A DNA stretch of 64,000 bases. Source: an uncultured Methylophilaceae bacterium. Its GTDB lineage: Bacteria > Pseudomonadota > Gammaproteobacteria > Burkholderiales > Methylophilaceae. The stretch's first letter is position 1. Every line of letters begins with the position of its first letter. This document shows positions 8,096-36,967 of this stretch, one piece after another. Position numbers and translations under genes: made by a program. The stretch lies in the NCBI GenBank assembly GCA_903870995.1, contig CAIQFD010000021.1, positions 8,461-72,460 of the forward strand. The letters run 5' to 3'. The notes under the pieces are model-generated. The model was not told the DNA's origin, searched no databases, and saw only the letters and a list, made by a program, of their open reading frames with translations.

Positions 8096-8106
8096 TCAAA
8101 AAATTC

Positions 8107-22564: not shown

Positions 22565-23823
22565 GGCATTGCTCCTGCAGCTTGGTTGTAATGGGCTGTA
22601 TCCCATTGCAATTGAATTTGGCGTTGTTTCATTGCGCGCTCTGCCTCATAAGCCGAGGCTTGCACACGTAAAAGACTTACTAAATCAGTTTCGCCCAAGG
22701 TGAACGCTTTTTTAGCAAGGCGTAAGCTCTCTTGCGCGTTGGCATGCTGTTTAGTGGTAATGGCAAGCTCGGCCGTTGTGACTTCTAAATTATGCTCAGC
22801 CTCGTGAAAGGCTGCTTCCAAGGTGTAGCGCAAATGCTGTGCTTCGGTTTGGTTCTTTGCGTAGTTCACTTCAGCATTCGCTACTAAAGGCGCACTATGG
22901 GATTCCGTTTCAAACGGTATGCGTAATTTCAAACCTAAGCTTTCATTTGATTGATTATCAAAAGGCCCTCGCTGGGTTCGCGCACTCAGTGATACGGTTG
23001 GATTTTCACGACGTTCGATTTTGATTAAACTACGCTCATCATCTGCCAACAATATTTTCTTAGAGGCATCGCGCAGTGCGGGATGATTGTCATCTAGGGA
23101 TGATTTGACTTGTTGCTCAATGAAACTTTCAGGAATCGCGTTTAAGCCAGTGAGTAACTTATATCTGAACTGCGCGTGCTTCACTTCAGCTTCAGCGCGA
23201 AGTAAAAACGTTTCCGCTTGATAAGCTTCGTTTTGCGCCAGCATGATATCGGTTTTTGGTAAATCGCCTGCTTTTACACGTTTTTCTACATCACTCAGTA
23301 AGGCTAAAGACGTTTGGTGACGGCTTTTTGCTAGCGTTGCTTGGTGCATCATCATGGCGATATCCCAAAGCGCATCACGCACCATGCCAGCTACCTGCAA
23401 ACTGAGTGTTGCGCGGGTATCAACCAAGCCTAGAGCTGCATCGCGTGCAATCGCTTCACGTGCCGCTCTTTGGCCTGGTAACCAAACGGGCAACTCAAGT
23501 TCCGCTTCCCACTCCCGCTCACCGCGATTGCTGGTGATTGCGTCATTTCGGTTCAACAGGCCAATGGCAGGGGCGGCAGGCAATATGCCGTTCGCACGTT
23601 TGTTTTTCGCATCAATTTCGATTTGTTTGGCCGCTAGCAAACCGCTGTCAGGATAACGAACGATGGTTTTTTCAACCAAGTCGTGCAGGCTAAGCTGAGG
23701 GCTTATTTGCAAATCATGGTCGTGATCATCTTGCTCAGCAAAAGCTGGGCTATTCGCAAGCAAAGCCAATAACATCCATGTGAAAAACGTTGGTGGATTA
23801 AATAATCTAAATTTTTGAAACAT
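22561..23823 (-). CDS. outer membrane efflux protein (CusC/CzcC/TolC family)
   Basis: Signal peptide MFQKFRLFNPPTFFTWMLLALLANSPAFA, then two repeated OEP-type helical halves. First gene of the C-B-A operon. Confidence 0.8.
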   Translation of the reverse strand: MFQKFRLFNPPTFFTWMLLALLANSPAFAEQDDHDHDLQISPQLSLHDLVEKTIVRYPDSGLLAAKQIEIDAKNKRANGILPAAPAIGLLNRNDAITSNRGEREWEAELELPVWLPGQRAAREAIARDAALGLVDTRATLSLQVAGMVRDALWDIAMMMHQATLAKSRHQTSLALLSDVEKRVKAGDLPKTDIMLAQNEAYQAETFLLRAEAEVKHAQFRYKLLTGLNAIPESFIEQQVKSSLDDNHPALRDASKKILLADDERSLIKIERRENPTVSLSARTQRGPFDNQSNESLGLKLRIPFETESHSAPLVANAEVNYAKNQTEAQHLRYTLEAAFHEAEHNLEVTTAELAITTKQHANAQESLRLAKKAFTLGETDLVSLLRVQASAYEAERAMKQRQIQLQWDTAHYNQAAGAMP

Positions 23824-23894
23824 CACATCACTCCAATTAATACCAAGACTAAGCATTTAAGTGCTTAGTGAAAACGGCAATTGCCGTCTAAGAA

Positions 23895-24290
23895 TTAATA
23901 GCGTGAGGGCGGAGCGCGCGGCGGGGAGGTGCGATTAAAGTGTGGTTTTACAATAGGGGATGAAGCTAAGTTGTAAAACCGTCTAACGTAAACCAAGTAT
24001 AGGCTGAGTGTCGCGAATACGAATAAAACGGGAAGCAAGAATTTGAATTCAAATTTCTCAGAAACGCCGGTGAACATACCGATGCTGTGTTCGGAAAGCA
24101 CTTCATTATGGATGGTTGGTTTCTGAAAGCCAGGCGTTGCAGCTGACTCAATTTCGTCTATGTGAATATGAATACCAGGCGTTTTGTCGACAGCACCAAT
24201 CCCAAAGGCATGGGCGTGCAAAAATGGCGAGATCAGCTGTAAAGCCACTAGCCAAAAGATGAAAAACTGAATGTGCCGTTTTTTGTTCAA
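23895..24290 (-). CDS. small His-rich two-TM protein upstream of the HME-RND operon (function unknown)
   Basis: 131 aa with N-terminal TM FFIFWLVALQLI followed by SPFLHAHAFG...GIHIHID, a second TM near the C-terminus and a Pro/Arg-rich tail. Co-directional with the OMF gene, 38 nt upstream of its longest ORF. Confidence 0.5.
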   Translation of the reverse strand: MNKKRHIQFFIFWLVALQLISPFLHAHAFGIGAVDKTPGIHIHIDEIESAATPGFQKPTIHNEVLSEHSIGMFTGVSEKFEFKFLLPVLFVFATLSLYLVYVRRFYNLASSPIVKPHFNRTSPPRAPPSRY

Positions 24291-24397
24291 GTTGCTCGCT
24301 AATTAAATGGGCGTTTCAATATACCTGTAAGCCATTATAGGGCGAGATGCTAGATAAAAGAAAGTGAACGTTTTTTGAAGCGGTTACTTATGGAGGA

Positions 24398-26068
24398 TTA
24401 ATTCACGCGGACGAGTTTTTCTCTATCGCCATCGGCGATGATTTTGCCGCCATCTAAAGCGATGACACGCTTGGCGGCTGCAAGCATCACGGCGCTGTGC
24501 GTAGTCATGATCAGCACGTCATTTTCACCGAGTAGCTGTGGCAAACGTTCAGCCAGTAGGCGTTCGCCATCGGGGTCTAAGCCTAGTGTTGGTTCATCTA
24601 ACAGCAAAATACGGCAAGGCTGAGCAAAGGTGCGGGCAAGGGCAACTTTTTGACGTTGTCCGCCAGATAAGTTGCGGCCGCCTTCTTCTAACTGCATGCC
24701 CAGTGTCATGCGGCCAGATTTAATCTCATCCGCCAAGCCAGAAGCCCAAAGCGCTTTTACAAAGCGTTCGTCATTCGCAATGACGCCAGCAACGAGTAAG
24801 TTTTCTTCTAATGTACCAGCAAATAAATTCGGGTCTTGTGACTTCCAAGCCAGCCATTTAGCACGATCTTGTGCTGAAATATCTTTAATCTCTAAGCCAT
24901 CAAATAAGATTTGGCCAGAACTAGCGGAGCTTAATCCGGCCAAGCAACGCATCAGCGTTGTTTTGCCTGCGCCAGGTTTGCCAAGTAGAGCAATGCGCTC
25001 GCCCGCTTTGATAGAAATTGAAACGCTTTCTAAAGCTACAGGGCGATCTGGATATTGTTTGCTCAGGTTAATAATGTCGATATTGCCTGCTACCATGTCG
25101 CGCGGAGTAAGTGCGCGGTCATCAACCGGCTTAAGGCTATCCTCCATCCGTTTTGCTGCGCGGCCAAAATCTTGCCATTTTCCAAGCACCATAAATAATG
25201 AAGTGACTAGAGACATGGCGCGTGAGGTGAGTAAGTTGCAAGCAATTAGACCACCCACTGAAAGTTCGCGCGCATCAATTAAGTAAGCGCCTGAAATAAG
25301 CATCACCACTGTGCTAAATGTAATCATCGAGGCGGAAAGGTTGTTGCTATGGGTAGTCGCTAAGCGACGTTCGCCATCTGCAATCGCGGTAGTTTCTGAA
25401 TGCTGAGCCCAGCGATTTAAAAATCGTGCTGAGTTTGGCACGGTACGTACGACATCTAAGGAGCCCAACACCTCGCCCATAAAGCTGAGTTTGAGCGTGT
25501 TTTCTTTTTCGGCGATTTTACTTTTCTCAGTGCTGCGGTTTTGCAATACATAACCAATTGCGGTGTAACTCAGCACCAACAGGATAGAAACAATCACCAA
25601 CTGCCAAGCGATTAAAGCCACTGCGAATAAGTAAAGTAGCAAGAAGGGCAGGTCTGCTAGGGCTAATAGATAAGTGGATGAAACAAAGTCGCGAGAGGCT
25701 GATAAATCCCGGTAGTTAGATAAAAACTTCGCAAAACCGCCTGTGATATCAGTTTGTCCGATGAGCCTGCGCCACAAATTTTCATCTGCACTTTTGGTCA
25801 GCTTTTCTGCTAAATGCTCGGTTGACCAAGCGCGCACAAAACGCATCCCTGCATCGGTTGCAAGGTAAATCAACATCCCAAAGGTGAGTGCCCAAAGCGT
25901 TTCAAAAATGCCGTTGTTAACAACCTTGTCGTAAATCAGCATAGAGAATAGCGGTAAAAGCAACTGCCCAGCGTTAACAAATAGGCTCGCTAATCCAACT
26001 TCCACCCAAGCGCCTCGGAGGGCATGCCAGAGGGGCTTTAGGGTATGTGTGGCTGGTTGGCTTATCAT
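24398..26068 (-). CDS. type I secretion ABC exporter (fused TMD-NBD, no N-terminal C39/CLD domain)
   Basis: 556 aa. The TMD begins near residue 20. Walker A GKPGAGKTT, signature LSGGQRQKV, Walker B ILLLDEPT, H-loop TTHS. Starts 7 nt after the RTX gene stop. Confidence 0.88.
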   Translation of the reverse strand: MISQPATHTLKPLWHALRGAWVEVGLASLFVNAGQLLLPLFSMLIYDKVVNNGIFETLWALTFGMLIYLATDAGMRFVRAWSTEHLAEKLTKSADENLWRRLIGQTDITGGFAKFLSNYRDLSASRDFVSSTYLLALADLPFLLLYLFAVALIAWQLVIVSILLVLSYTAIGYVLQNRSTEKSKIAEKENTLKLSFMGEVLGSLDVVRTVPNSARFLNRWAQHSETTAIADGERRLATTHSNNLSASMITFSTVVMLISGAYLIDARELSVGGLIACNLLTSRAMSLVTSLFMVLGKWQDFGRAAKRMEDSLKPVDDRALTPRDMVAGNIDIINLSKQYPDRPVALESVSISIKAGERIALLGKPGAGKTTLMRCLAGLSSASSGQILFDGLEIKDISAQDRAKWLAWKSQDPNLFAGTLEENLLVAGVIANDERFVKALWASGLADEIKSGRMTLGMQLEEGGRNLSGGQRQKVALARTFAQPCRILLLDEPTLGLDPDGERLLAERLPQLLGENDVLIMTTHSAVMLAAAKRVIALDGGKIIADGDREKLVRVN

Positions 26069-26075
26069 TAGGAGA

Positions 26076-29000
26076 TTATGCTGCTGCCCAGTTTATTGTG
26101 GCGATAACTGCACCACCATTGTATACAGTATGCGTGCCCGCTGTTGCCGAGCCTAATAATGTTGCAGAGCCTGTTGCGCTGTCAAATGTGCTGCCACCTG
26201 AAAGGATGAGCGAGTCTCCGGTGTCGTGGATGATTTTCAATGTTGGATTGGTGGTGTCAACGAAATTGATAATATCAGCAGCACTCAAAGTCACAGCTGT
26301 GTTTGCACTGTCTCCTTTGATGTTTAGAACTTCATTCGATGTACTAATTGCTGATATGGTGCTTAGGGAATAGGTGGTGCTTAATCCCTTTAGCTGGATT
26401 GTGTCGGTTCCTGTGTTGCCGTTAATATCAATTGGCAATGTGGAGTTAACATTGAGAATAAATGTGTCGTTTGCAGTAGACCCAATAAACTTTTCTATTG
26501 AGTTGAATGTATCGCCTGTGGCGTGCCCAGTTTCTAAGTTTGAAATGGACGATGTCGTAGAGTTTATATCTACCGTGACACTACCAGAGTTAGCATAAGT
26601 AACGGTATCAGTCCCTGCCCCACCGTTGAAAGCATCGGCCCCGTTACCCCCATCCATAGTATCATCTCCATTTCCTCCGTTAAGGGTGTCATCGCCATCA
26701 CCGCCTCTTAACGTGTCATTTCCATCACCACCGTTTAAGGTGTCATTTCCTCCAGCACCTTGCAGGATGTTGTCTCGGCTATTGCCTGTAATCACGTCGT
26801 TGTAATCGCTACCGTTGACGTTGTCGAAATTGCTGATGGTGTCGTTTCCACTACCACCAGTAACGTTATAGCCACTCGTTACTGTTAAGTTAACTGTAAC
26901 ACCTTGCCCAGCTTCACTTCCAATCGCACTTTTCCCAGCCCATTTATAGTCGATGGTGTTTGAGTACGCCATGTTATTTGCAATAATGACATTGTCTACA
27001 TTGGAAGCAAATATGGTGCCATTGTAATTGGTGTTTAGTATGGTGATATTTTCGATGCTCTTTAGTGTTAGATATCCGCCCAATCCACTTTGCGTTCCAC
27101 CTGTTGAATAATCGATGATGTTATTCGGTGAGAATGTACCAGTTGTCGTATCATCTTTCCCCATGTCAAGCGTATAGACAGTTGGAGTCGCAGCAAAAAC
27201 AAAAGTATCAGTGCCTGCGCCACCGTCAATTATATCTTGTTTATTATCAAGATATTTTGTAACGGTGATTATGTCATTGCCATCGCCACCATAAATAGTG
27301 GTGTTGCCTACTAAGCCTGTAAATATCTGGTCGTTACCAGCGCCGCCATAAATAGTATTTGAGTCTTTGAGCAAGTCACCTGTCTTCGTATAGCTCCCTG
27401 TTAATATATCGTCACCACTTGTGCCCACAAGCACTTGAATATTCGTATAAGTATCTTTTATAGCATCGCCAGTATTGTTTGCGGTTAAAGAGCCGTATGT
27501 AATACCATTAATGACGATTGCTGCACCATTATTAAGTGAGGCAGTTATTGCGCTTGCGCTGTTTGCATAAGTGACCGTGTTAATGCCACCACCACCATCA
27601 AATTTGTTGCCCAGTACATTACTGTTGCCAGTGAAGGTGTCGTCAAATGCTGAGCCTGTGATGTTTTGAATATTGATTAGAATATCACCGCTTGCATCAC
27701 CAGCACTCACTTGCTGGTCAGTATTGCTGAGGTCAACGGTTACGCCTGCACTGGAGTGAGTGTAAGTCACGGTGTCGGTTACGCCAGTATTGTTAGCTCC
27801 TCCATCAATAACGTTGGCATTGCTATCGCCTTCTAAAGTATCTGCAAATTTACCACCAGTAAGGTTTTCTATTCCATCGTAGGTGTCGTATTTTGCATCG
27901 CCTGCTAAGCCCTGTTTTAGCGATAAGCTAGCACTAATTGAGCCAGTCGCATATTTGTAACTGACGGTGTCACCTTGAAGGTTTGTCGTTTGATTGTAAG
28001 TTCCATCAATCGGGGTGTTGTTTCCACCAATAAAAGTGTCTCCCCCTGCAATTCCCATTAGCGTATCGTTACCATCACCACCGTCTAATATGTTTTTGTT
28101 GTTATCGCCAATTAGGATGTCGTTGTAACTAGAGCCAGTTAAATTTTCTATCGTTCCAGTAATAAATACATCACCAACAGCTTGAGCGCCACTATTGACC
28201 TCGGTGATGGAGCCATCATTTGATAGCTTTGCGACAATTCCTTCACTTGAGAATGTATAGGTAACGGTATCGCTTCCATAGCCACCGTTCATAATGTCTG
28301 CGCCAAGCCCGCCATAGATAATGTCGTTACCGGAGCCAGCATTTATCGTGTCATTGCCATCGCCTGCGTTAATGATTGTGCCAACACCTCTTTGCGGAAG
28401 CACCATCATTTGTGTGCCGTATGTATTGGCCACATTAAAATCCGACTCGGACACTGCATCACGCCAGGTCATATTTAGGTTGTTAATCACTTGAAAGTTA
28501 AATGCACCGATTTTGCCGTCTACTGTCACATCGCCGATAAAATCGACTATTTTTGAAGTGTCTAGTGAGGCAGATGTAATATTTTTCGCTTCGTAAACAA
28601 TTCCAACATTTACGCCATCCTTAAGCATGGCTGTGGTTGGTGTAATGTGCCAAGTGTAAGGAATGGTGGCATCGCGTGTGATTTCAGCACCATCAATGCT
28701 GACAAGATCAAAGCCTGGAATATCACCAATATTGTTAGAAAAGTTAATGGTAATAGCACTAATGCTCCCAAAGTTATCAATGCCGATGTGAAGGTTTTTA
28801 CTCCACTCTGCTGGTGCGCTACTAAAATTGGAGTTGTGGTTTATTACGTCATTACCAGCGCTTCCAGTGATTGTTTCTACATAAGACTGGTTTTGTGGAC
28901 TGGCATTGATGGCAAGCTGCGTCGCGCTTGCGGTAGCACTATATTCGCCACGCGGGTCAGCGTGAGACATTCCATCGTAAGTGACCTTTAATTCAGATGA

Positions 29001-29636
29001 GGTATAAAGTGCAGAAGTTACTTTAGGTGAACCAAAGCTTTCTCCAGATGCTGTATTTGTTTGAGATTTCCCCACACGATAAACCGCAGGCTGCGCTGTG
29101 ACTAATGGCGTGTATGTTTCTGGTACTTCACCGAGCCCTGTGCCTAAGCTTTTGCCAGCACCGTTACCTGTGCCAACCTTAAGCATTGGTGCTGGTGGAG
29201 GAGGTGTATCCGGGATGTGTTCGTCGTGGCTGACATTTTCATCCGTTGGTGGATTAGCATCAATATTCTCGCTCACTAAACGCAAGCTGCCTGCTTTGGC
29301 AGGGTTAGTAACGCCGACTAATTTGAATAGTTCAGGCAAGCTGATTTTGCTATCGCTAAATAGGGCATCTGGCGGATTTTTGCCTACGGCATCAATCGCG
29401 CCGTGTGGAATCACTACGTGCTCGCCGTTAGCAAAGGTGAGGAGCAAGTCAACGTCTGCTACGTCAACAAGCTTAAGTGCGCCCATGCTTTGCTTGATGG
29501 TGATGGCGCCATCAGCACTTTTTGTTGCTTGCTCTAGGTGTTGCGATGCAGGAATCGTCAGCGTGGCTTTTTCAGCGGCTTTTAATTGAATAGGCGCTTT
29601 GGTGTTTGCTGCTGCGCTATGGTTCTGTTTTGCCAT
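26076..29636 (-). CDS. large RTX (hemolysin-type Ca2+-binding repeat) secreted protein, presumed T1SS substrate
   Basis: 1186 aa with a hydrophilic N-terminus (no Sec signal). Several GGxGxD nonapeptide blocks, e.g. [42 protein letters not shown]. Recurrent DTVTY...V(D/S)L modules. The C-terminal region [25 protein letters not shown] resembles T1SS C-terminal target domains. Confidence 0.88.
   Translation of the reverse strand: [1186 protein letters not shown]
26607..26792 (-). repeat. tandem 27-nt (9-codon) RTX nonapeptide-coding repeats
   Basis: Five consecutive units encode [45 protein letters not shown]. Frame checked against the DNA (TDTVTYA at 26592-26612). Confidence 0.85.
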
Positions 29637-29687
29637 GATGTCGATTCCTTAGTGTTCTTACTCTATTTATTCGTGTTTTTTTACAGC

Positions 29688-31037
29688 TTACTTTTGGTTT
29701 TTAATGGCTTCAATTAATTCGCCTTGCATTTGAATCATCGTGCTAAGTAGACGTTGTCTTTCTGAGGCATCGTCTTTGGCTAGAATTTTAAGTTCAATCA
29801 AATGATTTGGAATTTCAACACTGTTTCTATCGGCAATGCTGAGCAAGTCACCCATTTGGCGTCCTACACGTTGTAGCTCGACTCTAAACTCTTGAGCGGC
29901 ACTTGTTTGCTCTGCAATCACGCGTAACATATCCGCACGTTGTTTTTGAAAGTCGTCAATTTCCATGCTGAGCGCGCGCTCTTGAATACGTAAGGATTCA
30001 GCAAGGCGCTCTTCAATACGGTTAAGGGTTCTAGCCGTTTCAGAGCTACCTTCCATGCTCGAGCTTGATGTTGAGTCGTTGCTATAACTAAGTGGGGTAT
30101 TATTTTGTTGAGCGCGGGCGATGTTGATGCGTTCATTCTCATCAGCCAGTAAAGCCTGCATTTCAAGGTCGCTCAAGTTGTTGGCACGCTGGTAAGCAAG
30201 CAAATCACTTGCAGTAAGCGGCTCAGCAATGCCTTCAGAAAGCTTGAATACGCTATTGTCTAAGGTTTTTTCTAGGTCGGTTTTGCTTTGACGGACGAAT
30301 GAATATTCAATATGTTGTGCCACTTCTGACCCAAGTAGCGAAGTTACTTCCCCCATGCAACGGCGAACAGAAACCATCATAAAACTCAAAATGATTGAGC
30401 CTAGTAAACCGTACATAGAGGCTGAGAATGCGATACCCATGGAATGCATAGGAGCTTCCATTTTGGTGACCATTTGCCCAAAAATAGCGATAGGGTCTGC
30501 TGTTTTGATGTCTAGATTTGAGAAGCTAGAAATCAGCGCGGCGATATCATCAAGTGTGGCTAAAAGACCAATAAATGTTCCAAGCAAGCCCATGCCGACT
30601 AGCAAGCCACTAAAGAATTGTGGAAGGGCATTGCGTGCAGTGAGGCGCTCACGTAGCTTTTTAACTTCATTTTCAATCGCCACTTGCTCTTGGTGCATGA
30701 TGGCGTGACCAGTTGATGAGGCAATCATGCGAAGCACGTGCGCCATTTCGGCATTGGAATTGAGGGCAATCTCTCTTAGTTCATCGGCGCTGGCGCCATC
30801 CTTTTGCGCTTCTGTGAAAATACTTAACTGCTCGGCTTCTTCCATCAGGCGATGGATGATACGCATAATTAAAATGCCGCCAATGAAGATAATCGCAAAA
30901 ATAATGTAGTTGATTTGCGGATGTGGATTGCTCGCAATCGTTTTGATAATCGCAGTGCGATAGAGAATTGCTGCCAACAGCAACAATGCAAATGGCAGCG
31001 CTGTATAGAGGTAGTAAATTCTTAAATTTTTATACAT
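29688..31037 (-). CDS. MotA/TolQ/ExbB-family proton-channel protein with a roughly 220-aa C-terminal coiled-coil tail
   Basis: 4 predicted TM segments. Family motifs GMGLLGTFIGLLATL (TM3) and GIAFSASMYGLLGSIILS (TM4). Residues about 230-449 are heptad-rich and charged (LNRIEERLAESLRIQERALSMEIDDFQKQRADMLRVIAEQ...). AGGA SD lies 8 nt before the ATG. Confidence 0.75.
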   Translation of the reverse strand: MYKNLRIYYLYTALPFALLLLAAILYRTAIIKTIASNPHPQINYIIFAIIFIGGILIMRIIHRLMEEAEQLSIFTEAQKDGASADELREIALNSNAEMAHVLRMIASSTGHAIMHQEQVAIENEVKKLRERLTARNALPQFFSGLLVGMGLLGTFIGLLATLDDIAALISSFSNLDIKTADPIAIFGQMVTKMEAPMHSMGIAFSASMYGLLGSIILSFMMVSVRRCMGEVTSLLGSEVAQHIEYSFVRQSKTDLEKTLDNSVFKLSEGIAEPLTASDLLAYQRANNLSDLEMQALLADENERINIARAQQNNTPLSYSNDSTSSSSMEGSSETARTLNRIEERLAESLRIQERALSMEIDDFQKQRADMLRVIAEQTSAAQEFRVELQRVGRQMGDLLSIADRNSVEIPNHLIELKILAKDDASERQRLLSTMIQMQGELIEAIKNQK

Positions 31038-31103
31038 GAATTATTCCTGTTGGTTCTTTAACATTTAAATAGTGAGTGTGTTGTTGTTTGAATTGATCTT
31101 GGG

Positions 31104-32372
31104 CTACCTAGGATCTCTAAGTGCGCGGTCAGAGAACCTTAATAATGGCGATAGCAAATACGAGATAACCGTACGTTTACCTACAACGATATCGGCAATC
31201 GCTGTCATCCCCGGCAAGATTTCCATTTCTTGGTTGTTGTCTTTTGCTTCGAGCATGATGCGGTAGTACCTGCCTTCACGTTCATCTAGCAAGGTGTCGG
31301 CACTGACGTCACTAACTTTGCCATTGAGCGTGCCGAAGGTGGCGTAGTCATATGCACCAAGGCGGATATGAGCAGGCAAGCCGTGCCTTAAATTCGCCCT
31401 ATCATTTGGTTTGGCGCGTGCTTCGATCAGGACGCTTTGGTTCGCAGGGGTGATTTCCATCAAGGCTTCCCCAGGCTTAATGACACCACCTACTGTGGTC
31501 ACTGACATGCGATTGATAATCCCAGAAACTGGGGCTTTGACTTGGTTGCGATCCAGTTTGTCTTTGTTCGTGTCGATCTCAAAACCAGACTTCTCGATTT
31601 CGCCGCGAAGTTGAGTGAGCTCAGAAGATGCTTCTGAGCGATATCGTGCCCATACTTCGCCGACTTTTGACTCGGTCTCTGCCATTGCTGCTTTGAGTCT
31701 TGGAATGGCGGCTTCTGCTTCTGAAATTTGAGAGGTGAGTCTTTGGACGCGTGATTGGCTATCAAGTAGCTCAAGGTTAGAGGCTGCGCCGTTACGTTTC
31801 AAACCCTCAATGACTTTGTATTGCTGTTGAGCCACTTCTAGCTCAGACGATAGGTTTCTGCGGCGGCTTTCTGCTTCGCTAATCTCGCCACGCTTTTGAG
31901 CATTTTGGTCTCGAAGCACGCGCACTTCATCCGACACTCTTGCACGCCTCGCTTCAAATGCGAGTGTTTCTGCTCTGCGCACATCCGGGTCTTGAATGTC
32001 TTTTGGGAAATTAATCGCGCCAGCTCCACTCGATTCAGCGATCAATCTCGCTTCGCGGCCTCGGAGGGTAGTCGATTTAGATTGTTCTTGATCTAAGTTT
32101 GATTTTACTTGCACATCAGACAGCTCTAGTAATGCTTGGCCCGCAGTTACTTTTTGGCCTTCATGGACCAAAATGTTACGCACAATTCCACCCTCTAAAT
32201 GTTGGATGATTTGTGATTTTCCAGCAGGAACAATCCGACCCTCAGTGCGCACGATGACGTCAACTTTGGCAATGCTCGCCCATAGCAAAAACAAAACACA
32301 AGCGATCGCCGTGACTGCCACAAATGCGGTGCGAGGATGAGTGCGTTGCATGATTTTGAAAAATTTATTCAT
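31104..32372 (-). CDS. HlyD-family type I secretion membrane fusion protein
   Basis: N-terminal TM AFVAVTAIACVLFLLWASI, lipoyl-like segment VHEGQKVTAGQALLEL, a long coiled-coil and a C-terminal beta-barrel region. The ATG lies 2 nt after the upstream MotB-like stop. Confidence 0.88.
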   Translation of the reverse strand: MNKFFKIMQRTHPRTAFVAVTAIACVLFLLWASIAKVDVIVRTEGRIVPAGKSQIIQHLEGGIVRNILVHEGQKVTAGQALLELSDVQVKSNLDQEQSKSTTLRGREARLIAESSGAGAINFPKDIQDPDVRRAETLAFEARRARVSDEVRVLRDQNAQKRGEISEAESRRRNLSSELEVAQQQYKVIEGLKRNGAASNLELLDSQSRVQRLTSQISEAEAAIPRLKAAMAETESKVGEVWARYRSEASSELTQLRGEIEKSGFEIDTNKDKLDRNQVKAPVSGIINRMSVTTVGGVIKPGEALMEITPANQSVLIEARAKPNDRANLRHGLPAHIRLGAYDYATFGTLNGKVSDVSADTLLDEREGRYYRIMLEAKDNNQEMEILPGMTAIADIVVGKRTVISYLLSPLLRFSDRALRDPR

Positions 32373-32374
32373 GA

Positions 32375-33058
32375 CTATTTTGGTGAAACCATGACTTTTG
32401 AGTTGTCTGCGTTATTGCTACCTTCACGCACTAAAACTTCAATATTTTCAGCGGGTACTTTTAGCGCAATGAGCTGATTTCTGACAGACATAGCACGGTA
32501 AAAGGCTAAACGTTTTGCTTCAGAAAAGTCTTTTGGTGTGGTTACTTCAATATGTGCACTGCCAGTTTTTGCAATGGTGCTTAATGCACTCCGAACAGTT
32601 TCAGTTTCGCTTGGGTTAAGGCTGACAGCATCTTGTGTAAAACTCACCACGACTTGTCCGCCAGCATCGGTAGCGTTTTGTAAGCTTTTTTCAGGGGTTT
32701 TGTTTGGCGTTTTGGCGACCACCACTTTTTGCGGTGTTGTCGCGTTGTTCTTGATTTGCGCTTCCTGTTTGAGTGCAGCTAAGCTTTGTTGAAGCGATTG
32801 GATTTGTTCGTCTTTGGCCTTAATCGCCTCATTTGTGCTACTTGTTGGGTCAATAGATTCAGGGTTCTCGACAGTTTGCTGTTGTGCTGAAGGTGCTGGG
32901 TTCTCATTAGTGTGGCGGCTTAAGGCGAGCGCAAACATGAAAACCGCGATAATCATAATGGTCAACACAAACAGCAAATTTAATACTAAGTTGGTAACGG
33001 CATCGACGTACCCTGGCCAGAAAATATCTGACCCGTCACCACTTCCTTCATGTTCCAT
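32375..33058 (-). CDS. MotB-like protein: MotB-type TM with conserved Asp plus a divergent OmpA-like C-terminal domain
   Basis: N-terminus FWPGYVDAVTNLVLNLLFVL aligns with E. coli MotB WKIAYADFMTAMMAFF (Y-x-D-x-x-T; Asp19 codon at 33002-33004). A low-complexity/coiled linker follows. C-terminus VSFTQDAVSL...AHIEVTT...AKRLAFYRAMSVRNQLI resembles the OmpA_C fold motif. Confidence 0.7.
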   Translation of the reverse strand: MEHEGSGDGSDIFWPGYVDAVTNLVLNLLFVLTIMIIAVFMFALALSRHTNENPAPSAQQQTVENPESIDPTSSTNEAIKAKDEQIQSLQQSLAALKQEAQIKNNATTPQKVVVAKTPNKTPEKSLQNATDAGGQVVVSFTQDAVSLNPSETETVRSALSTIAKTGSAHIEVTTPKDFSEAKRLAFYRAMSVRNQLIALKVPAENIEVLVREGSNNADNSKVMVSPK

Positions 33059-33093
33059 TTAACGTTGCTCCTAGTTAATCTTTTGGCCGTGAA

Positions 33094-34938
33094 TTAATTG
33101 CCACCGAGGTTCTGTGCGCTAGCAACAACTGTGCTTGGATTGCCTTGCACTAAACGGGCGATTTGTGAAATGGCCGTCATCTCTTGAATATGCAAAGTCA
33201 CTAAACGGGTGCGTGCTTGGTAGTAGCGGTCGTAAACGTCAAGCATGTCGAGCAGGGACTGATTGCCTGATACCATGCGCGCTGACATTGATTTTGCTGC
33301 GCTAGAAATTGAATCTAGCTCGTTGTACCCGCCCGCGAGTCTTTCTCTGGTTGCTTCTAGCGTTGCGTATTGAGCTGAGAGTGATTGAATGACGCGGCGT
33401 TGCTGGTCATCTAAGCGATAGGTAAGCTCCATGTAGCGGGCTTGCTTTTCATCGTTCAACTTCCAATCACTGCCGCCATTTAAAACTGACCAATTCATGA
33501 CCATCATTAAACGTTGGTCATGTTGGCTGCCTGCTTGGCCGCCTGCATGAGCGCTGTCTGTATCAGAATATTCAAGATTCAAGGTCGGTAAAAAGCGCGC
33601 TTTTGCCGCATTTTTATCTAAACTTGCCGCATTAATTTCAGCGCGTAATGATGAAATATCAGGGTTAGCTTCCAAAGAGCGAGGCATGGCTTCATCGAGA
33701 GTTTTCGGTACGATGGATAAACCAACATCATCAAGCTCTGGCAAACGGAGTGAGCTTGGCGATAAATTAATTAAACGCACCAACTCAATTCCTGCGGCAG
33801 CTTGGGCAGCCTCTTGTTCAACTCGTGCTGATTTCGCACTCAGCATTCTTGCACGCACGCGTTCTTTATCTGAATTGCTTGCTGCTCCAGCTTTTGCGCG
33901 TTTGTCGATGTATTGGAATAACTCTTTCAATTGATTTTCGTAATCAATCGCCATGTTGGCTTGAATGCGGGTTGAGGTAAGTGCTAAATAGGCATTCACT
34001 GTGGCAACATAAGTATCGCCTTGGCTTGCGCGCACGCCTTCTTGGCGTGACTCTTCAATCACTTTTCTGCGCTTCCAATCATACAGGCCGGCGACATCTA
34101 AGATTGGTTGACGCAACGTGACGCTAGTATCTTGTCTGTTGTGGATGCTACGTGCGACCTCTTTTCCTGTCGTAGTATCAATCTGTGCGCCCGGCGTTGA
34201 AGTTTCGCGGCCTGCTTTTACGTTCACTAACAGTGATGGCAACATAAACGCGCGCGCTTGACCTGTTTGTGCTTCCGCTTGATTTAAGCGTGAGCTAGCA
34301 ACTAACACATCCCGGCTAAACCCCATCGATGCCTTAATTGCTTGGCTTAAATCAATGCCGCTGATGCTTTCAACTGGGCTTGCCTCGTTTGAGCGAAAGC
34401 TTTTTACTCCGGCCGTGAATTGCTTTCTTGCATCAGCATCAACGGTGATTTCTAGTGTGCCAATTAGGCTGGAGAGTGAGTGATCGGATGGAGAGTCAAA
34501 CCTTGGTGCGACTTCTGAATGCTTTGTATTATCTGTACTGCTTCCAACAAACTCAGCAATTTCATTCGAATTGCTATCCAATGGCTTTTGTATTGTTGAT
34601 GAAGTGCCCACATCTTTCGTGGAAGTGATTAAGGGGGTTGATTGTCGTCCAACAATACGTTCTGAGGCTGGTAAGATAGCATTCATGGCTTGTACAGCGG
34701 CAGCTGCTGCAGCTGCCGCTGCATTCGCCGCCACTGCAGCAGAGTTTGCTGCATCAACGGCAGCATTGGCAGCTTTCGCCGCCGCGGAAAGCGTTGTATT
34801 AGGTTTTGAATTGTTGGCCTGCAAGTCTGCAGCAAGTACGCCATTGCTTAAGGCACATATGCCGAATGAGAGCATGATGTAAGCGCTGATGCTTGCGGGC
34901 TTTAAAAGAGGCTCTTTTGGTTGCTTGGTATGGTTCAT
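33094..34938 (-). CDS. TolC-family outer membrane protein with a roughly 150-aa N-terminal extension
   Basis: 614 aa with signal peptide ...ALSNGVLA/AD. The TolC-type core starts near residue 190 (IDLSQAIKASMGFSRDVLVASSRLNQAEAQ...) with two repeated halves. The preceding Ala-rich and Ser-rich segments are not part of canonical TolC. Confidence 0.8.
   Translation of the reverse strand: MNHTKQPKEPLLKPASISAYIMLSFGICALSNGVLAADLQANNSKPNTTLSAAAKAANAAVDAANSAAVAANAAAAAAAAAVQAMNAILPASERIVGRQSTPLITSTKDVGTSSTIQKPLDSNSNEIAEFVGSSTDNTKHSEVAPRFDSPSDHSLSSLIGTLEITVDADARKQFTAGVKSFRSNEASPVESISGIDLSQAIKASMGFSRDVLVASSRLNQAEAQTGQARAFMLPSLLVNVKAGRETSTPGAQIDTTTGKEVARSIHNRQDTSVTLRQPILDVAGLYDWKRRKVIEESRQEGVRASQGDTYVATVNAYLALTSTRIQANMAIDYENQLKELFQYIDKRAKAGAASNSDKERVRARMLSAKSARVEQEAAQAAAGIELVRLINLSPSSLRLPELDDVGLSIVPKTLDEAMPRSLEANPDISSLRAEINAASLDKNAAKARFLPTLNLEYSDTDSAHAGGQAGSQHDQRLMMVMNWSVLNGGSDWKLNDEKQARYMELTYRLDDQQRRVIQSLSAQYATLEATRERLAGGYNELDSISSAAKSMSARMVSGNQSLLDMLDVYDRYYQARTRLVTLHIQEMTAISQIARLVQGNPSTVVASAQNLGGN
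34675..34788 (-). repeat. GCN-rich low-complexity coding tract (poly-Ala/Asn helix) inside the TolC-like gene
   Basis: Encodes SAAAKAANAAVDAANSAAVAANAAAAAAAAAVQAMNAI. The DNA shows runs of gcagctgctgcagctgccgctgc. Confidence 0.8.
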
Positions 34939-35455
34939 TCTCTTTGGGTTCTGATTTTTTCTAATGAGTTAAAATTAAACACATTTTATTAATGGTATGT
35001 ATTAGATAAAAATAAAAATCACATATTTTGTTTAAAGATAACTTAATTTATTTTGTTGTTTGATTTTATATATTTTGTTGGTTTTATTGAATTTTATCAT
35101 GTTAAAAATCAAAATAAAAACATTGATTTAGTATGTATTGCAGGTAAATATTAAATAAAAAAACAAATGTTAAATTCAACATTTATATCTTCATGTTTTT
35201 AATGAAATTGATTTCTTAAATGAGCTTTAAATATTTATTAATATAATACATACCATATTTTATTTTTTTGCCTAAAAATGGTGCTTTTAGTCTGAAACGC
35301 GCGTTGAAACATCATGAAGTTTGCATTGAATTTGACGATTTTGTATTAAATCTGCTTTTGAACGCGCTTTAGATTCAAATCCGATTTATAATTTCGGCTC
35401 TGTTGATTTGGTCAAGCCAAGTCACATCCATTAAACAACTCCAAAAGAGAAGAAA
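34939..35455. promoter_or_regulatory. 517-bp extremely AT-rich divergent control region (T1SS operon / gnd)
   Basis: Hand counts on lines 35041 and 35161 give 15-17% GC. Contains a 13-nt inverted repeat (34992-35004 / 35244-35256), phased A-tracts and short direct repeats. Confidence 0.6.
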
Positions 35456-36967
35456 ATGACCACCAAAAATGCTGATATTGGCCTCGTTGGCCTTGCTGTG
35501 ATGGGGCAAAATCTTGCCCTCAATATTGCCGATCATGGCTACACCATTGCGGTTTACAACCGTGACCCTAAAAAAATGGTGAATTTTATTGAAGAGTGTA
35601 AGAAAAATGAGCCATCACATGAAAATGTGGTTGGTCATGCAGATTTAGCTTCTTTCGTGTTGAGCATTAAGCGTCCACGTAAGATTGTATTGTTGGTTAA
35701 AGCAGGTAGCGCGACTGACGTGACTATTAATGCTTTGCTTCCTTTCTTAGAGCAAGGTGACATCATTATTGATGGCGGTAACGCTTTATGGACAGACACG
35801 ATTCGTCGTGAAAAAGAATTAGCCGCTAAGGGCATCGAATTTATCGGCTCTGGCGTTTCAGGTGGTGAAACGGGTGCGCGTTTCGGCCCAAGCTTGATGC
35901 CTTCTGGCACACGCAAGGCATGGGCGAGCTTAGAGCCAATTTGGCGTGATATTGCAGCTAAAGTAGATCCAAAAACGGGTGTGCCTCTAGAAGGCGGTAA
36001 ACCAGGCAAGCCAGTTGAAGGTGGTTTTTCCTGTGCTGAATACATCGGCCCAGATGGTGCTGGTCACTATGTGAAAATGGTGCACAACGGTATTGAATAT
36101 ATCGATATGCAATTGATTTGCGAAGCTTACTGGTTGATGAAAAACTTGCTTGGTATGGAAGCTGGCGAAATCGGTAAGATTTTTGAAGAGTGGAATAAGG
36201 GTGAATTATCAAGCTTCTTGATTGAAATTACTGGCGATATTCTTCAACAAAAAGACCCTGCAGGTAAGGGTTATTTGGTTGATATGGTGATGGACGCTGC
36301 GGGTCAAAAAGGCACTGGCCAATGGACTGCAGCAAATGCGCTTGAACTAGGCGCGCCAGCAAATGCGATTGCAGCGGCTGTTTACGCGCGTGCGCTTTCA
36401 AGCTTGAAAGAGGAACGTGTTGAAGCGAGCAAGATTCTTAAAGGGCCAGTGATTAAAACTGAGTCAGATAAGAAAGAGATTATTGAGGCGATTAAGAACG
36501 CACTTTATTGCTCAAAAATCTGTGCTTACGCGCAAGGCTTCCAACTGATTGATAAAGCACAAGTAGCTTACAACTGGAAATTGAACTTCGGTGAAATCGC
36601 TCAGATCTGGCGCGGTGGTTGTATCATCCGTGCTCGCTTCCTGCAAAAAATCACGGATGCTTATGCACTTGACTCACGTTTGAAAAACTTGATGTTGGAT
36701 CCATATTTCACACAAGCGATGAACGATGGCCAGGCTGGCTGGCGTAAAGTGATTGCCTTGGCAGTGACGAACGGTATTCCTGCGCAAGGTTTCTGCGCAG
36801 CGCTTTCATACTATGATGGCTACCGCAGTGCCGTGCTTCCAGCTAACTTGTTGCAAGCGCAACGTGATTACTTCGGTGCGCACACTTATGAGCGTGTTGA
36901 CCAACCGCGTGGTCAGTTCTACCACTTGGATTGGCCAGAAGCAGGTCGTCCACAGTACGAAATTTAA
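35456..36967 (+). CDS. gnd: 6-phosphogluconate dehydrogenase (decarboxylating)
   Basis: [12 protein letters not shown] Rossmann motif, [15 protein letters not shown] and [14 protein letters not shown]. 503 aa, longer than E. coli Gnd (see finding on the insertion). Confidence 0.93.

What the first reader, a model, noticed from the sequence alone, without database searches (positions are those of the whole stretch)
29688..31037. MotA/ExbB-like channel protein with a long cytoplasmic coiled-coil tail (ZorA-like architecture, non-Zorya context)
The 449-aa protein has four predicted TM helices at about residues 11-26, 42-60, 141-163 and 199-222. It carries the two hallmark MotA/ExbB motifs GLLGTFIGL (TM3) and AFSASMYGLLGSI (TM4). 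The positive-inside rule (K3/R6, RIIHR after TM2, KKLRERLTAR before TM3, VRRC after TM4) predicts MotA topology. That places the C-terminal roughly 220 residues in the cytoplasm. This tail starts with a Ser-rich linker (SNDSTSSSSMEGSSE) and continues as heptad-rich charged sequence, consistent with a long coiled coil. A stator subunit with a long cytoplasmic coiled-coil tail is the defining feature of ZorA of Zorya anti-phage systems. Here there are no ZorC/D/E-type effector genes, and the nearest neighbours are HlyD and an RTX gene. The tail could contact the ABC exporter NBDs or the unfolded substrate.
Basis: partly seen in the sequence, partly recalled or inferred. Interest (0 to 1): 0.72.

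Follow-up and report, generated by a model that had tools for sequence, protein, structure and literature searches.

The report
Proton-motor subunit built into secretion system
This gene encodes the membrane subunit, with a long helical cytoplasmic tail, of a MotA/MotB-like proton-channel pair embedded in a type I secretion operon for a giant calcium-binding surface protein; Salmonella already has a distant version (SiiAB), so this is a widespread, unstudied variant of a known arrangement, not a new kind of system.

Summary
A 449-aa ORF lies on the minus strand at 29688-31037. It has four hydrophobic helices, the GLLGTFIGL and AFSASMYGLLGSI motifs, a marginal Pfam MotA_ExbB hit, and an AlphaFold model whose first ~250 residues match ExbB/TolQ structures.

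The closest characterised relative is not ZorA but SiiB, the MotA-like accessory subunit of the Salmonella SPI-4 type I secretion system:
- SiiB family: hhalign 96.9%, E 1e-10, 183 columns.
- ZorA1: 86%, 72 columns.
- ExbB, TolQ, MotA: below 2%.

ORF 32375-33058 is a MotB/SiiA-like protein with an invariant FWPGYVD motif and a degenerate OmpA-like domain.

The order TolC, MotB-like, HlyD, MotA-like, giant substrate, ABC holds in 65 of 67 informative loci (Methylophilaceae, Rhodocyclales, Geobacterales, Desulfuromonadales). The substrates share a family-specific N-terminal domain.

The tail is not a continuous coiled coil. About 90 variable, low-confidence residues precede one conserved ~115-aa helical module, which occurs in roughly 1 to 6 tandem copies in relatives.

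Most likely function: a proton-driven SiiAB-like unit that couples membrane energy to late secretion or surface retention of the giant RTX protein. Verdict: new variant of a known kind, moderate interest.

The parts
33094..34938 (-). TolC-family outer-membrane channel (614 aa) with a signal peptide and a ~190-aa Ala/Ser-rich N-terminal extension. First gene of the cassette.
   Evidence: Pfam OEP E 5.9e-27. TIGR01844 aligns to residues 196-590. Sequence read. Lies directly upstream of the MotB-like gene in 65 of 67 informative loci.
32375..33058 (-). MotB/SiiA-like B subunit (227 aa). Invariant FWPGYVD19A..N23L..N27LLF in and before a single TM helix, a variable linker with a short heptad stretch, and a C-terminal degenerate OmpA-like domain (P.GFSEAKR183.GFYRAMAVRN).
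   Evidence: PADLOC ZorB1 E 1.5e-4. NCBIfam PRK09039 peptidoglycan-binding protein N-terminus E 4.6e-7. Pfam OmpA E 0.003 and Pilus_CpaD E 3e-4, both below cut-off; CpaD matched in 15 of 20 members. Conservation. BLASTP against SiiA aligns WPxxVD plus the TM, E 4e-4. hhalign places SiiA's FSDSLRLGYERG next to the family's FSEAKRLGFYRAM, E 1.2e-3, probability 19%.
31104..32372 (-). HlyD-family type I secretion periplasmic adaptor (422 aa), lying between the B and A subunit genes.
   Evidence: TIGR01843 357 bits against a cut-off of 209. Pfam HlyD_3. One TM helix at 16-34.
30288..31037 (-). Target, residues 1-250: four-helix membrane domain of the MotA/ExbB/SiiB-like A subunit. Conserved motifs NPHPQINY (periplasmic loop 1), HQEQ, GLLVGMGLLGTFIGLLATLDDI (TM3) and MEAPMHSMGIAFSASMYGLLGSI (loop plus TM4).
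   Evidence: AF2 pLDDT for this region is mostly 80-89. Foldseek: ExbB 5sv0 E 7e-5, TolQ 8vlw, target-normalised TM-score 0.56-0.65. hhalign to the SiiB family 96.9%, 183 columns.
30039..30287 (-). Target, residues 251-333: variable, partly Ser-rich, low-complexity linker. Not conserved in sequence or length across the family and absent in the Desulfuromonadales-type homologues.
   Evidence: Alignment A1. AF2 pLDDT below 50 at 260-275 and 313-331. No heptad signal.
29688..30038 (-). Target, residues 334-449 plus stop codon: conserved helical tail module (RIEERLAE..QER.LS.EIDDFQKQRADMLR..AEQT....F..ELQR.GRQ.G...). One copy here; multiple tandem copies in relatives.
   Evidence: Invariant residues. 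Module copy counts. AF2 helices 330-404 and 410-448. Moderate heptad register. The 3-module homologue is predicted almost entirely helical.
26076..29636 (-). RTX-repeat substrate (1186 aa). Its N-terminal domain (about residues 25-158, DNA 29163-29564) is family-specific and conserved in the gene downstream of the A subunit in 74 of 75 loci.
   Evidence: Pfam HemolysinCabind E 4e-32. Sequence. N-domain conservation. No Pfam family for the N-domain. Weak similarity to the SiiE N-terminus.
24398..26068 (-). LssB-type type I secretion ABC permease/ATPase (556 aa), lacking the N-terminal C39-like domain that the ~700-aa orthologues carry.
   Evidence: TIGR03375 435 bits, aligned to model positions 147-690 of 696. 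Pfam ABC_membrane plus ABC_tran. Orthologue lengths.

Best explanation
The ORF encodes the A (MotA/ExbB-like) subunit of a SiiAB-type proton-channel or stator unit that is an integral, co-inherited component of a six-gene type I secretion cassette: TolC-like channel, MotB/SiiA-like B subunit, HlyD adaptor, this A subunit, a giant RTX substrate, and an LssB-type ABC exporter.

Shown here:
- Homology of the membrane domain to SiiB and, more distantly, to ZorA and ExbB/TolQ.
- A partner B subunit with an invariant TM aspartate and a degenerate OmpA-like domain.
- Near-invariant synteny with the T1SS genes.
- A substrate N-terminal domain that is conserved together with the cassette.
- A cytoplasmic, helical, modular tail.

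Inferred by analogy with MotAB, ExbBD, ZorAB and SiiAB:
- Five A subunits surround two B subunits.
- Protons pass via Asp19 of the B subunit and the Thr/Ser-lined TM3/TM4 of the A subunit.
- The B subunit anchors to the cell wall.
- The resulting conformational or rotary work is delivered through the A-subunit tail to the cytoplasmic face of the secretion machine (the ABC nucleotide-binding domains and/or the last-to-exit N-terminal domain of the substrate).

The most likely physiological output, as reported for SiiAB and SiiE, is PMF-dependent control of the final step: holding the giant RTX protein at the cell surface or releasing it, rather than bulk export.
For: Superfamily membership:
- Pfam PF01618 just above its cut-off.
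- AF2 model with pLDDT about 80-89 in the membrane domain.
- Foldseek top hits are ExbB and TolQ, E 7e-5 to 1e-3, over about 240 columns.

Specific relation to SiiB:
- BLASTP 33% identity over 113 aa, E 6e-11.
- hhalign against SiiB alone gives 95.6% probability over 188 columns spanning all four hydrophobic segments. Against a 20-sequence SiiB-family profile it gives 96.9%, E 1.4e-10.
- The same profile gives 0.4-1.6% against E. coli TolQ, ExbB and MotA and 86% over 72 columns against ZorA1.
- Membrane-domain HMM scores: SiiB 37.5 bits; ZorA1 7.8; ExbB 3.4; MotA 2.9; TolQ 1.2.
- SiiB has the same four-segment hydropathy pattern and a similar size, 462 aa.

Partner B subunit: invariant FWPGYVD plus a TM helix, with weak OmpA, CpaD, ZorB and PRK09039 hits and weak SiiA alignments.

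Synteny: TolC, MotB-like and HlyD lie directly upstream in 65 of 67 informative loci. A large protein with the conserved N-domain lies directly downstream in 74 of 75. The same holds for a more distant relative.

Cytoplasmic tail: positive-inside pattern and the TM5 plus LysM variants.

Published SiiAB properties:
- SiiA Asp13-dependent proton flux and peptidoglycan binding by SiiA (10.1101/641415).
- SiiE is still secreted without SiiAB, but invasion and retention are lost, and SiiF forms complexes with SiiB depending on its Walker A motif (PMC12607715).
- SiiE retention depends on PMF (PMC6272769).
Against: - The cytoplasmic tails of this family and of SiiB do not align at all. The part most likely to carry the output function is therefore not demonstrably shared.
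- The similarity between the B subunit and SiiA is weak (E about 1e-3 to 4e-4 in pairwise tests; hhalign probability 19%).
- The OmpA-like domain falls below Pfam cut-offs, so cell-wall binding is unproven.
- Gene order differs from siiABCDEF.
- Stoichiometry, proton conduction, rotation and every protein contact are inferred. Only monomer models were made, and the tail has low confidence in the multi-module homologue.
- The substrates are RTX proteins of unknown function. Calling them adhesins is an assumption.
- The similarity of the substrate N-domain to the SiiE N-terminus is only suggestive (13 bits; hhalign 28%).
Confidence: 0.7

Rival explanations
1. Export energiser. The MotAB-like unit is needed for translocation itself. 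It feeds proton-motive force into the T1SS, for example to start or sustain threading of very long substrates or to drive assembly of the HlyD-TolC conduit, rather than to control surface retention after export.
For: - The A and B genes are interleaved with the TolC, HlyD and ABC genes in virtually every locus. This suggests a structural or stoichiometric role rather than an optional regulator.
- The substrates are very large, 1000-3300 aa.
- In this window the ABC lacks the C39-like accessory domain, so another component might take over substrate handling.
Against: In the only studied homologous system, SiiE is still secreted when siiA and siiB are deleted (PMC12607715). Canonical T1SS export giant RTX adhesins without such a unit (established knowledge of LapA-type systems). 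No direct data exist for this family.
Confidence: 0.2
2. Envelope-state sensor. The pair works as a gated channel that signals through the tail to the ABC ATPase or to other cytoplasmic partners, as SiiAB does with the chemoreceptor CheM. No mechanical work is done on the substrate.
For: - SiiA and SiiB interact with the chemoreceptor CheM, and aspartate sensing changes SiiE retention (10.1101/2021.05.14.443827).
- SiiA binds peptidoglycan only at acidic pH.
- The tail module carries many invariant charged or polar residues (R340, E342, R344, R354, Q366, R367, R372, E376, Q389, R393, Q394). This is more typical of a specific binding surface than of a generic coiled coil.
Against: No signalling partner is conserved in the neighbourhood; only the six cassette genes are conserved. 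The invariant TM aspartate and channel motifs argue for real ion flux.
Confidence: 0.07
3. A Zorya-type anti-phage ZorA/ZorB pair that happens to lie in a secretion operon.
For: PADLOC ZorA3 E 2e-7 and ZorB1 E 1.5e-4. hhalign to ZorA1 86%. Long helical tails in relatives, up to about 480 residues.
Against: - The hits cover only the TM3-TM4 region or the B-subunit N-terminus.
- SiiB gives the same kind of weak ZorA hits.
- The only neighbours conserved across the 80 loci are T1SS genes, and no ZorC/ZorD/ZorE gene was noted next to the cassette. The neighbours themselves were not scanned with PADLOC.
- ZorA chains are not among the 50 best fold matches.
- The hhalign comparison with ZorB is negative.
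Confidence: 0.02
4. An ordinary ExbB/TolQ paralogue serving a TonB- or TolA-like transducer, adjacent to the T1SS genes by coincidence.
For: The best fold matches are ExbB and TolQ.
Against: No ExbD/TolR-type or TonB/TolA-type gene is adjacent. The partner is MotB-like. Profile comparison with ExbB and TolQ gives probabilities below 2%. Synteny with the T1SS is conserved across orders and phyla.
Confidence: 0.01

Closest known systems
SiiB (with SiiA) of the Salmonella enterica SPI-4 type I secretion system
   Same: - MotA/ExbB-superfamily inner-membrane protein of similar size (462 vs 449 aa) with the same four hydrophobic segments and a cytoplasmic tail of roughly 225-250 aa.
- Homologous membrane domain.
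- Paired with a ~210-230-aa MotB-like protein carrying WPxxVD plus a TM helix and an OmpA-like C-terminal domain.
- Encoded in one operon with TolC-, HlyD- and ABC-type T1SS genes and a giant secreted substrate.
   Different: - Only about 33% identity over the TM3-TM4 region, and the tails do not align.
- The tail here is a conserved module that is tandemly repeated in relatives.
- Gene order is TolC-B-HlyD-A-substrate-ABC rather than A-B-C-D-E-F.
- The substrate is an RTX-repeat protein rather than a BIg-repeat adhesin.
- The SiiB clade was found only in Enterobacterales (37 hits). This family occurs in Methylophilaceae, Rhodocyclales, Burkholderiales, Geobacterales, Desulfuromonadales and Desulfobulbales.
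ZorA of Zorya anti-phage systems
   Same: MotA/ExbB-superfamily A subunit with a long alpha-helical cytoplasmic tail of variable length and a MotB-like partner. Second-closest characterised family by profile comparison and PADLOC.
   Different: - ZorA has three TM helices and a ~500-residue continuous pentameric coiled-coil tail of about 70 nm, and it works with ZorC/ZorD effectors (PMC11946911).
- This protein has four hydrophobic helices and a ~90-residue non-conserved linker before a single 115-aa module.
- No Zor effectors are present, and the context is a T1SS.
ExbB / TolQ (Ton and Tol-Pal motors)
   Same: Best structural matches to the first ~240 residues. Compact cytoplasmic domain between the N-terminal and C-terminal TM helices. 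GxxGT motif in the penultimate TM helix.
   Different: - Sequence-profile similarity is negligible.
- This protein has an extra N-terminal hydrophobic helix and a long C-terminal tail.
- The partner is MotB-like with an OmpA-like domain, not ExbD/TolR.
- There is no TonB or TolA.
MotA / PomA flagellar stator subunit
   Same: Four TM helices with an N-in/C-in topology and a MotB-like partner with a TM aspartate and an OmpA-like domain.
   Different: The cytoplasmic loop is only about 78 residues. hhalign is negative. PomA appears only at rank 49 in the fold search. There are no flagellar genes nearby.

Membership tests
MotA/ExbB/TolQ superfamily (A subunit of 5:2 ion-driven motors) | Match to Pfam PF01618 above the gathering threshold | tested here: met
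   23.6 bits against a cut-off of 22.9, E 4.8e-5, residues 114-224. The margin is small.
MotA/ExbB/TolQ superfamily (A subunit of 5:2 ion-driven motors) | Fold of the membrane plus membrane-proximal domain | tested here: met
   The AF2 model (pLDDT 80-89 in this region) matches ExbB 5sv0 (E 7e-5) and TolQ 8vlw, target-normalised TM-score 0.56-0.65 over about 240 columns.
MotA/ExbB/TolQ superfamily (A subunit of 5:2 ion-driven motors) | Partner B subunit with a single TM helix carrying a conserved aspartate | tested here: met
   ORF 32375-33058. D19 in FWPGYVD is invariant in 20 of 20 aligned sequences and conserved in at least 90% of a 77-sequence alignment.
MotA/ExbB/TolQ superfamily (A subunit of 5:2 ion-driven motors) | A5B2 stoichiometry and ion conduction | not testable with these tools
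   Only monomer prediction was available. Needs multimer modelling, cryo-EM and pH-reporter assays.
SiiB-type T1SS accessory subunit | Sequence homology to SiiB stronger than to other stator families | tested here: met
   hhalign 96.9%, E 1.4e-10, 183 columns against the SiiB family. SiiB scores 37.5 bits against the membrane-domain HMM; ZorA1, ExbB, MotA and TolQ score 8 bits or less.
SiiB-type T1SS accessory subunit | Encoded within a T1SS operon (TolC, HlyD, ABC) together with a giant substrate | tested here: met
   for the window. Conserved in 65 of 67 (upstream) and 74 of 75 (downstream) loci.
SiiB-type T1SS accessory subunit | SiiA-like partner (MotB-like, TM aspartate, peptidoglycan-binding domain with the critical Arg) | tested here: inconclusive
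   The WPxxVD plus TM region aligns with E 4e-4. The C-terminal domain aligns with E 1.2e-3 but only 19% probability, placing SiiA's SLRLGYERG next to the family's EAKRLGFYRAM. A PDB profile search did not recover SiiA-PD.
SiiB-type T1SS accessory subunit | Homologous cytoplasmic C-terminal domain | tested here: not met
   No alignment beyond residue ~227 in single-sequence or profile-profile comparison.
SiiB-type T1SS accessory subunit | Interaction with the ABC exporter; PMF-dependent control of substrate retention | not testable with these tools
   Reported for SiiB and SiiF and for SiiE retention. Needs two-hybrid, pull-down and mutant phenotypes.
ZorA (Zorya) | Match to ZorA profiles over the whole motor domain | tested here: inconclusive
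   PADLOC ZorA3 E 2e-7 and hhalign 86%, but only over TM3-TM4 (72-110 residues). The PDB profile hit to ZorA 8qyh has E 0.18. SiiB gives comparable weak hits.
ZorA (Zorya) | Continuous long coiled-coil tail starting at the last TM helix | tested here: not met
   Residues ~251-333 are variable, with pLDDT below 50 in two stretches and no heptad signal. Only 334-449 is a conserved helical module. ZorA's tail is about 500 residues and 70 nm.
ZorA (Zorya) | Adjacent ZorC/ZorD (or ZorE / ZorF-G) effector genes | tested here: not met
   In the window and in 80 related loci the conserved neighbours are T1SS genes, identified with Pfam/NCBIfam and with searches using the cassette proteins. This is indirect evidence: only three cassette proteins were scanned with PADLOC.
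MotA flagellar stator | Large cytoplasmic torque-generating loop between TM2 and TM3; flagellar gene context | tested here: not met
   The loop is 78 residues. hhalign to E. coli MotA gives 1.6% on an irrelevant segment. PomA ranks 49 in the fold search. No flagellar genes were seen among the cassette genes and immediate neighbours that were annotated.

The most novel reading that the evidence does not exclude
The tail modules of five A subunits assemble into a ZorA-like helical bundle whose length is set by the number of ~110-aa modules (one in this organism, several in Desulfuromonadales). This bundle is a rotating or ratcheting shaft. It acts on the ABC exporter's nucleotide-binding domains or on the conserved N-terminal domain of the substrate, which leaves the cytoplasm last. 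Proton flow would then mechanically decide whether a giant RTX protein stays plugged in its secretion channel or is released. If so, SiiB-like and ZorA-like proteins would form one clade of 'tailed' stators that transmit work into the cytoplasm, and this would be the first case in which such a motor is coupled to protein secretion across many environmental phyla.
Probability: 0.2. Interest if true: 0.8.

Novelty: new variant of a known kind. Interest (0 to 1): 0.5.

Why it matters
How the SiiAB proton channel assists a type I secretion system has remained unresolved since it was described in 2014. It has been studied only in Salmonella, and in the search done here the SiiB clade appeared only in Enterobacterales.

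This finding shows that a distantly homologous pair is a fixed, interleaved component of a six-gene T1SS cassette in at least 154 of the species-representative genomes scanned, including free-living methylotrophs, Rhodocyclales and metal-reducing Geobacterales/Desulfuromonadales.

Two features give handles for experiments:
- A cytoplasmic tail built from a repeatable, highly conserved helical module.
- A substrate N-terminal domain that is conserved along with the cassette.

Several carriers are cultivable, including Methylobacillus and Methylovorus. The finding also places SiiB-like proteins next to ZorA as 'tailed' members of the 5:2 motor superfamily, which bears on how these motors deliver work to cytoplasmic partners.

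Tried and rejected
- Single-sequence and profile searches of PDB sequences with the A subunit gave nothing useful. The only hit was ZorA 8qyh at E 0.18; the rest were coiled-coil noise.
- The same searches with the B subunit gave only coiled-coil noise and did not recover SiiA-PD or MotB.
- NCBIfam has no model for the A subunit.
- The Pfam accession PF27720.1, precomputed on some multi-module homologues, is absent from the local Pfam copy, so its identity is unknown.
- Pfam hits on the tail are sub-threshold coiled-coil noise.
- hhalign of the B subunit against E. coli MotB and ZorB1 was negative.
- Promoter and terminator consensus scans of 23500-35600 found no more sites than shuffled sequence. 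One promoter-like site at 35415-35388 (minus strand) upstream of the TolC gene is unsupported.
- Base composition gives no sign of recent transfer of the cassette: 46% GC against 44.6% for the window.
- Cluster look-ups gave no source names, so the organism of the window stays unidentified. The closest named relatives of this protein are Methylotenera, at 57% identity.
- A LapA/LapD/LapG-type retention system was considered. The Shewanella bpfA operon has an OmpA-like gene but no MotA-like gene. The genes flanking the cassette here are 6-phosphogluconate dehydrogenase, radical-SAM and Crp-family genes and an RND efflux operon, with no LapD- or LapG-like gene among them.
- Literature searches found no paper describing this family or linking SiiB with ZorA beyond lists of 5:2 motors.
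Full report
1. What is in the sequence

The finding's coordinates hold a 449-aa ORF on the minus strand, 29688-31037. Hydropathy scanning finds four hydrophobic segments at about 10-30, 44-62, 144-166 and 202-224.

Pfam MotA_ExbB (PF01618) matches residues 114-224 at 23.6 bits, just above the 22.9-bit cut-off. NCBIfam has no model for the protein. PADLOC gives weak ZorA hits, best ZorA3 at E 2e-7, covering only the TM3-TM4 region.

The gene is real and conserved:
- 520 homologues in the word-indexed search.
- 154 relatives among the species-representative genomes scanned.
- In an exhaustive profile search of 1.84 billion cluster representatives: 1284 hits at E <= 1e-3, 748 at E <= 1e-10 and 159 at E <= 1e-30.

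2. Anatomy of the protein

An alignment of 26 diverse homologues (A1) shows three parts.
- Residues 1-250 are very strongly conserved. Motifs include NPHPQINY in the first periplasmic loop, HQEQ, GLLVGMGLLGTFIGLLATLDDI and MEAPMHSMGIAFSASMYGLLGSI.
- Residues ~251-333 vary in sequence and length. This stretch contains the Ser-rich segment at 319-333.
- Residues 334-449 form a conserved module (RIEERLAE..QER.LS.EIDDFQKQRADMLR..AEQT....F..ELQR.GRQ.G) with many invariant charged and polar residues.

Structure prediction and repeat analysis:
- AlphaFold2 with this alignment gives mean pLDDT 75, and mostly 80-89 across the membrane domain. It predicts one long helix 182-260 running through TM4 into the cytoplasm, low-confidence stretches at 260-275 and 313-331, and tail helices 330-404 and 410-448.
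- A simple heptad-register scan finds a constant register at only about 348-410 and 411-449, at the 95th-99th percentile of shuffled tails. It finds nothing in 225-330.
- A jackhmmer scan of 80 orthologues shows that the tail module is tandemly repeated. Beta-proteobacterial proteins (430-480 aa) have one copy after a linker. Geobacterales/Desulfuromonadales proteins (480-742 aa) have no linker and two to about six or seven full or half copies (the repeats are visible directly).
- A 605-aa three-module homologue is predicted to be almost entirely helical after residue 264, at low monomer confidence (pLDDT 35-60).

The tail is therefore helical, modular and variable in length. In this particular protein it is not one long continuous coiled coil.

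3. Topology

The positive-inside pattern (K3/R6, nine K/R in loop 61-140, RR after TM4) predicts N-in/C-in.

There is independent support. More distant relatives (P0186, P0236, P0175) have a fifth hydrophobic helix about 150 residues after TM4. It is followed by a long low-complexity region and a C-terminal LysM peptidoglycan-binding domain. LysM must be periplasmic, so the helical segment after TM4 is cytoplasmic.

4. Surroundings

The ORF is the fourth gene of a tight minus-strand cassette with gaps of 2-66 bp:
- TolC-like channel, 33094-34938.
- A 227-aa protein, 32375-33058.
- HlyD adaptor, 31104-32372 (TIGR01843, 357 bits).
- The target.
- A 1186-aa RTX-repeat protein, 26076-29636.
- An LssB-type ABC exporter, 24398-26068.

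- It begins with FWPGYVD19AVTNLVLNLLF, followed by a single TM helix. The aspartate and N23/N27 are invariant.
- Its N-terminus matches ZorB1 (E 1.5e-4) and the PRK09039 MotB-like 'peptidoglycan-binding protein' models (E 4.6e-7).
- Its C-terminal ~90 residues give sub-threshold OmpA and Pilus_CpaD matches, the latter in 15 of 20 family members.

Synteny is essentially invariant.
- In 65 of 67 related loci with enough upstream sequence, TolC, MotB-like and HlyD lie directly upstream of the A subunit. The two exceptions are ORF-calling artefacts.
- In 74 of 75 loci the gene directly downstream is a large protein, up to about 3300 aa. Its first ~130-150 residues are homologous to residues ~25-158 of the window's RTX protein. 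The rest of that protein varies.
- An ABC exporter follows wherever the contig is long enough.
- A more distant relative (P0140, 242 bits) sits in the same arrangement.

5. Comparison with known systems

The literature search turned up the direct precedent. Salmonella SPI-4 encodes SiiA (210 aa, MotB-like, Asp13, peptidoglycan-binding domain) and SiiB (462 aa, MotA/ExbB-like). They form a proton-conducting inner-membrane complex attached to the SiiCDF T1SS that secretes the giant adhesin SiiE (10.1101/641415; PMC12204202).

What is reported for SiiAB:
- Deleting siiA and siiB leaves SiiE secretion intact but impairs invasion (PMC12607715).
- SiiF forms complexes with SiiB depending on its Walker A motif (PMC12607715).
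- Surface retention of SiiE rises with PMF and collapses with CCCP (PMC6272769).

To test homology I recovered an SPI-4 contig by searching metagenome contigs for a published siiA primer. On L085, siiA is at 8194-8826 and siiB at 6809-8197, followed by siiC, siiD and the start of siiE.

Results for the A subunit:
- BLASTP against SiiB: 33% identity over 113 residues, E 6e-11.
- hhalign of A1 against SiiB: 95.6%, E 1.2e-8, 188 columns covering all four hydrophobic segments.
- hhalign of A1 against a 20-sequence SiiB-family profile: 96.9%, E 1.4e-10.
- The same profile against E. coli TolQ, ExbB and MotA: 0.4%, 1.6% and 1.6%.
- Against ZorA1 from an E. coli plasmid: 86%, E 5e-6, but only 72 columns.
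- Membrane-domain HMM scores: SiiB 37.5 bits; ZorA1 7.8; ExbB 3.4; MotA 2.9; TolQ 1.2.
- SiiB has the same four-segment hydropathy pattern, whereas TolQ, ExbB and ZorA have fewer segments.

By fold, the first ~240 residues match ExbB (5sv0, E 7e-5) and TolQ best. PomA is at rank 49, and no ZorA chain is among the 50 best.

The tails of SiiB and of this family do not align.

The B subunit's relation to SiiA is weak but consistent. WPxxVD plus the TM helix aligns with E 4e-4. The C-terminal domain aligns with E 1.2e-3 at 19% probability, putting SiiA's SLRLGYERG next to the family's EAKRLGFYRAM. SiiA's peptidoglycan-binding Arg162 appears to lie in that segment and the family's invariant Arg183 in the matching one.

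The substrate N-domain resembles the SiiE N-terminus only weakly (13 bits; hhalign 28%, E 6e-4).

6. Most likely mechanism

Shown:
- An A/B pair of the MotAB, ExbBD, SiiAB and ZorAB superfamily, with the ion-pathway hallmarks.
- Fixed inside a T1SS cassette.
- A cytoplasmic modular helical tail.
- A substrate N-terminal domain conserved together with the cassette.

Inferred:
- An A5B2 proton-driven unit anchored to the wall by the B subunit.
- The tail delivers conformational or rotary work to the cytoplasmic face of the exporter: the ABC nucleotide-binding domains, as reported for SiiB and SiiF, and/or the substrate's N-terminal domain.
- T1SS substrates exit C-terminus first, so that N-terminal domain is the last part to leave the cell.

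By analogy with SiiAB, the favoured output is PMF-dependent control of whether the giant RTX protein stays at the surface or is released. A role as an export energiser is the main rival. A pure sensor role is a lesser one. Zorya defence and an ordinary ExbB/TolQ function are excluded by synteny.

7. Novelty and verdict

The idea of a stator-like proton channel attached to a T1SS is known.

This family is nevertheless only a distant relative of SiiB:
- It has an unrelated, repeat-built tail.
- It has a different gene order.
- Its substrates are RTX proteins.
- It has a broad environmental distribution, whereas the SiiB clade was found only in Enterobacterales.

No paper describing it was found. 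I rate it a new variant of a known kind, with interest about 0.5. It is not a surprise in principle, but it offers a useful and experimentally tractable route to the unresolved question of what SiiAB-type motors do for secretion.

Noticed in passing
window 29163-29564 (minus strand; RTX protein residues ~25-158): The N-terminal domain of the RTX substrate (VDVADVDLLL.F.DG..V.IPNGALDA...DLFK.VG...AKAGSLR.VSE) has no Pfam family. It is conserved in the gene immediately downstream of the MotA-like gene in 74 of 75 related loci, while the rest of the substrate varies from about 1000 to 3300 aa. It resembles the SiiE N-terminus weakly.
   Followed up: partly
window 24398-26068 (minus strand): [quoted passage not shown] Only 7 bp separate it from the RTX gene, so this is not a split gene. 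Methylobacillus orthologues (573-576 aa) are similarly short.
   Followed up: partly
window 18294-24290 (minus strand): An RND efflux operon (OEP 22561-23856, adaptor 21407-22606, AcrB-type pump 18294-21407) plus a 131-aa two-TM ORF (23895-24290) lies between the T1SS cassette and the Na+/H+ antiporter gene. In the relatives whose A subunit is 96% identical (L001-L003) the ABC gene is followed directly by the antiporter gene, so this ~6-kb block is an insertion or deletion difference.
   Followed up: partly
window 33094-34938 (minus strand): The TolC-like protein is unusually long (614 aa). After the signal peptide comes ~190 aa of Ala/Ser-rich low-complexity sequence before the TolC core. Orthologues range from about 500 to 1280 aa.
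   Followed up: no
P0186, P0236, P0175 (contigs; L094): More distant relatives of the A subunit (about 140-170 bits) carry a fifth TM helix ~150 residues after TM4, a long acidic low-complexity region and a C-terminal LysM domain. This fuses a wall-binding module to the A subunit. Their neighbours include a 1860-aa Big_13 protein and an OEP gene.
   Followed up: partly
L081-L083 (Limnohabitans, Burkholderiaceae) and L092/L093: These cassettes have a second ABC-HlyD(-TolC) set immediately upstream. In L092 the protein in the B-subunit position is 440 aa and has no Pfam hit.
   Followed up: no
P0027, P0105, P0108, P0110, P0111, P0113: The precomputed annotation lists Pfam accession PF27720.1 on several multi-module homologues. 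That accession is not in the local Pfam copy, so it could not be identified. It may already describe the tail module.
   Followed up: no
L085 6809-8826; SiiB homologues were found only in Enterobacterales: Salmonella, Yersinia mollaretii and Y. enterocolitica, Candidatus Hamiltonella and Fukatsuia symbionts, Chimaeribacter and Dryocola. Most are annotated as hypothetical or generic MotA/TolQ/ExbB proteins. SiiB itself gives weak ZorA1 PADLOC hits (E 2.7e-5).
   Followed up: partly
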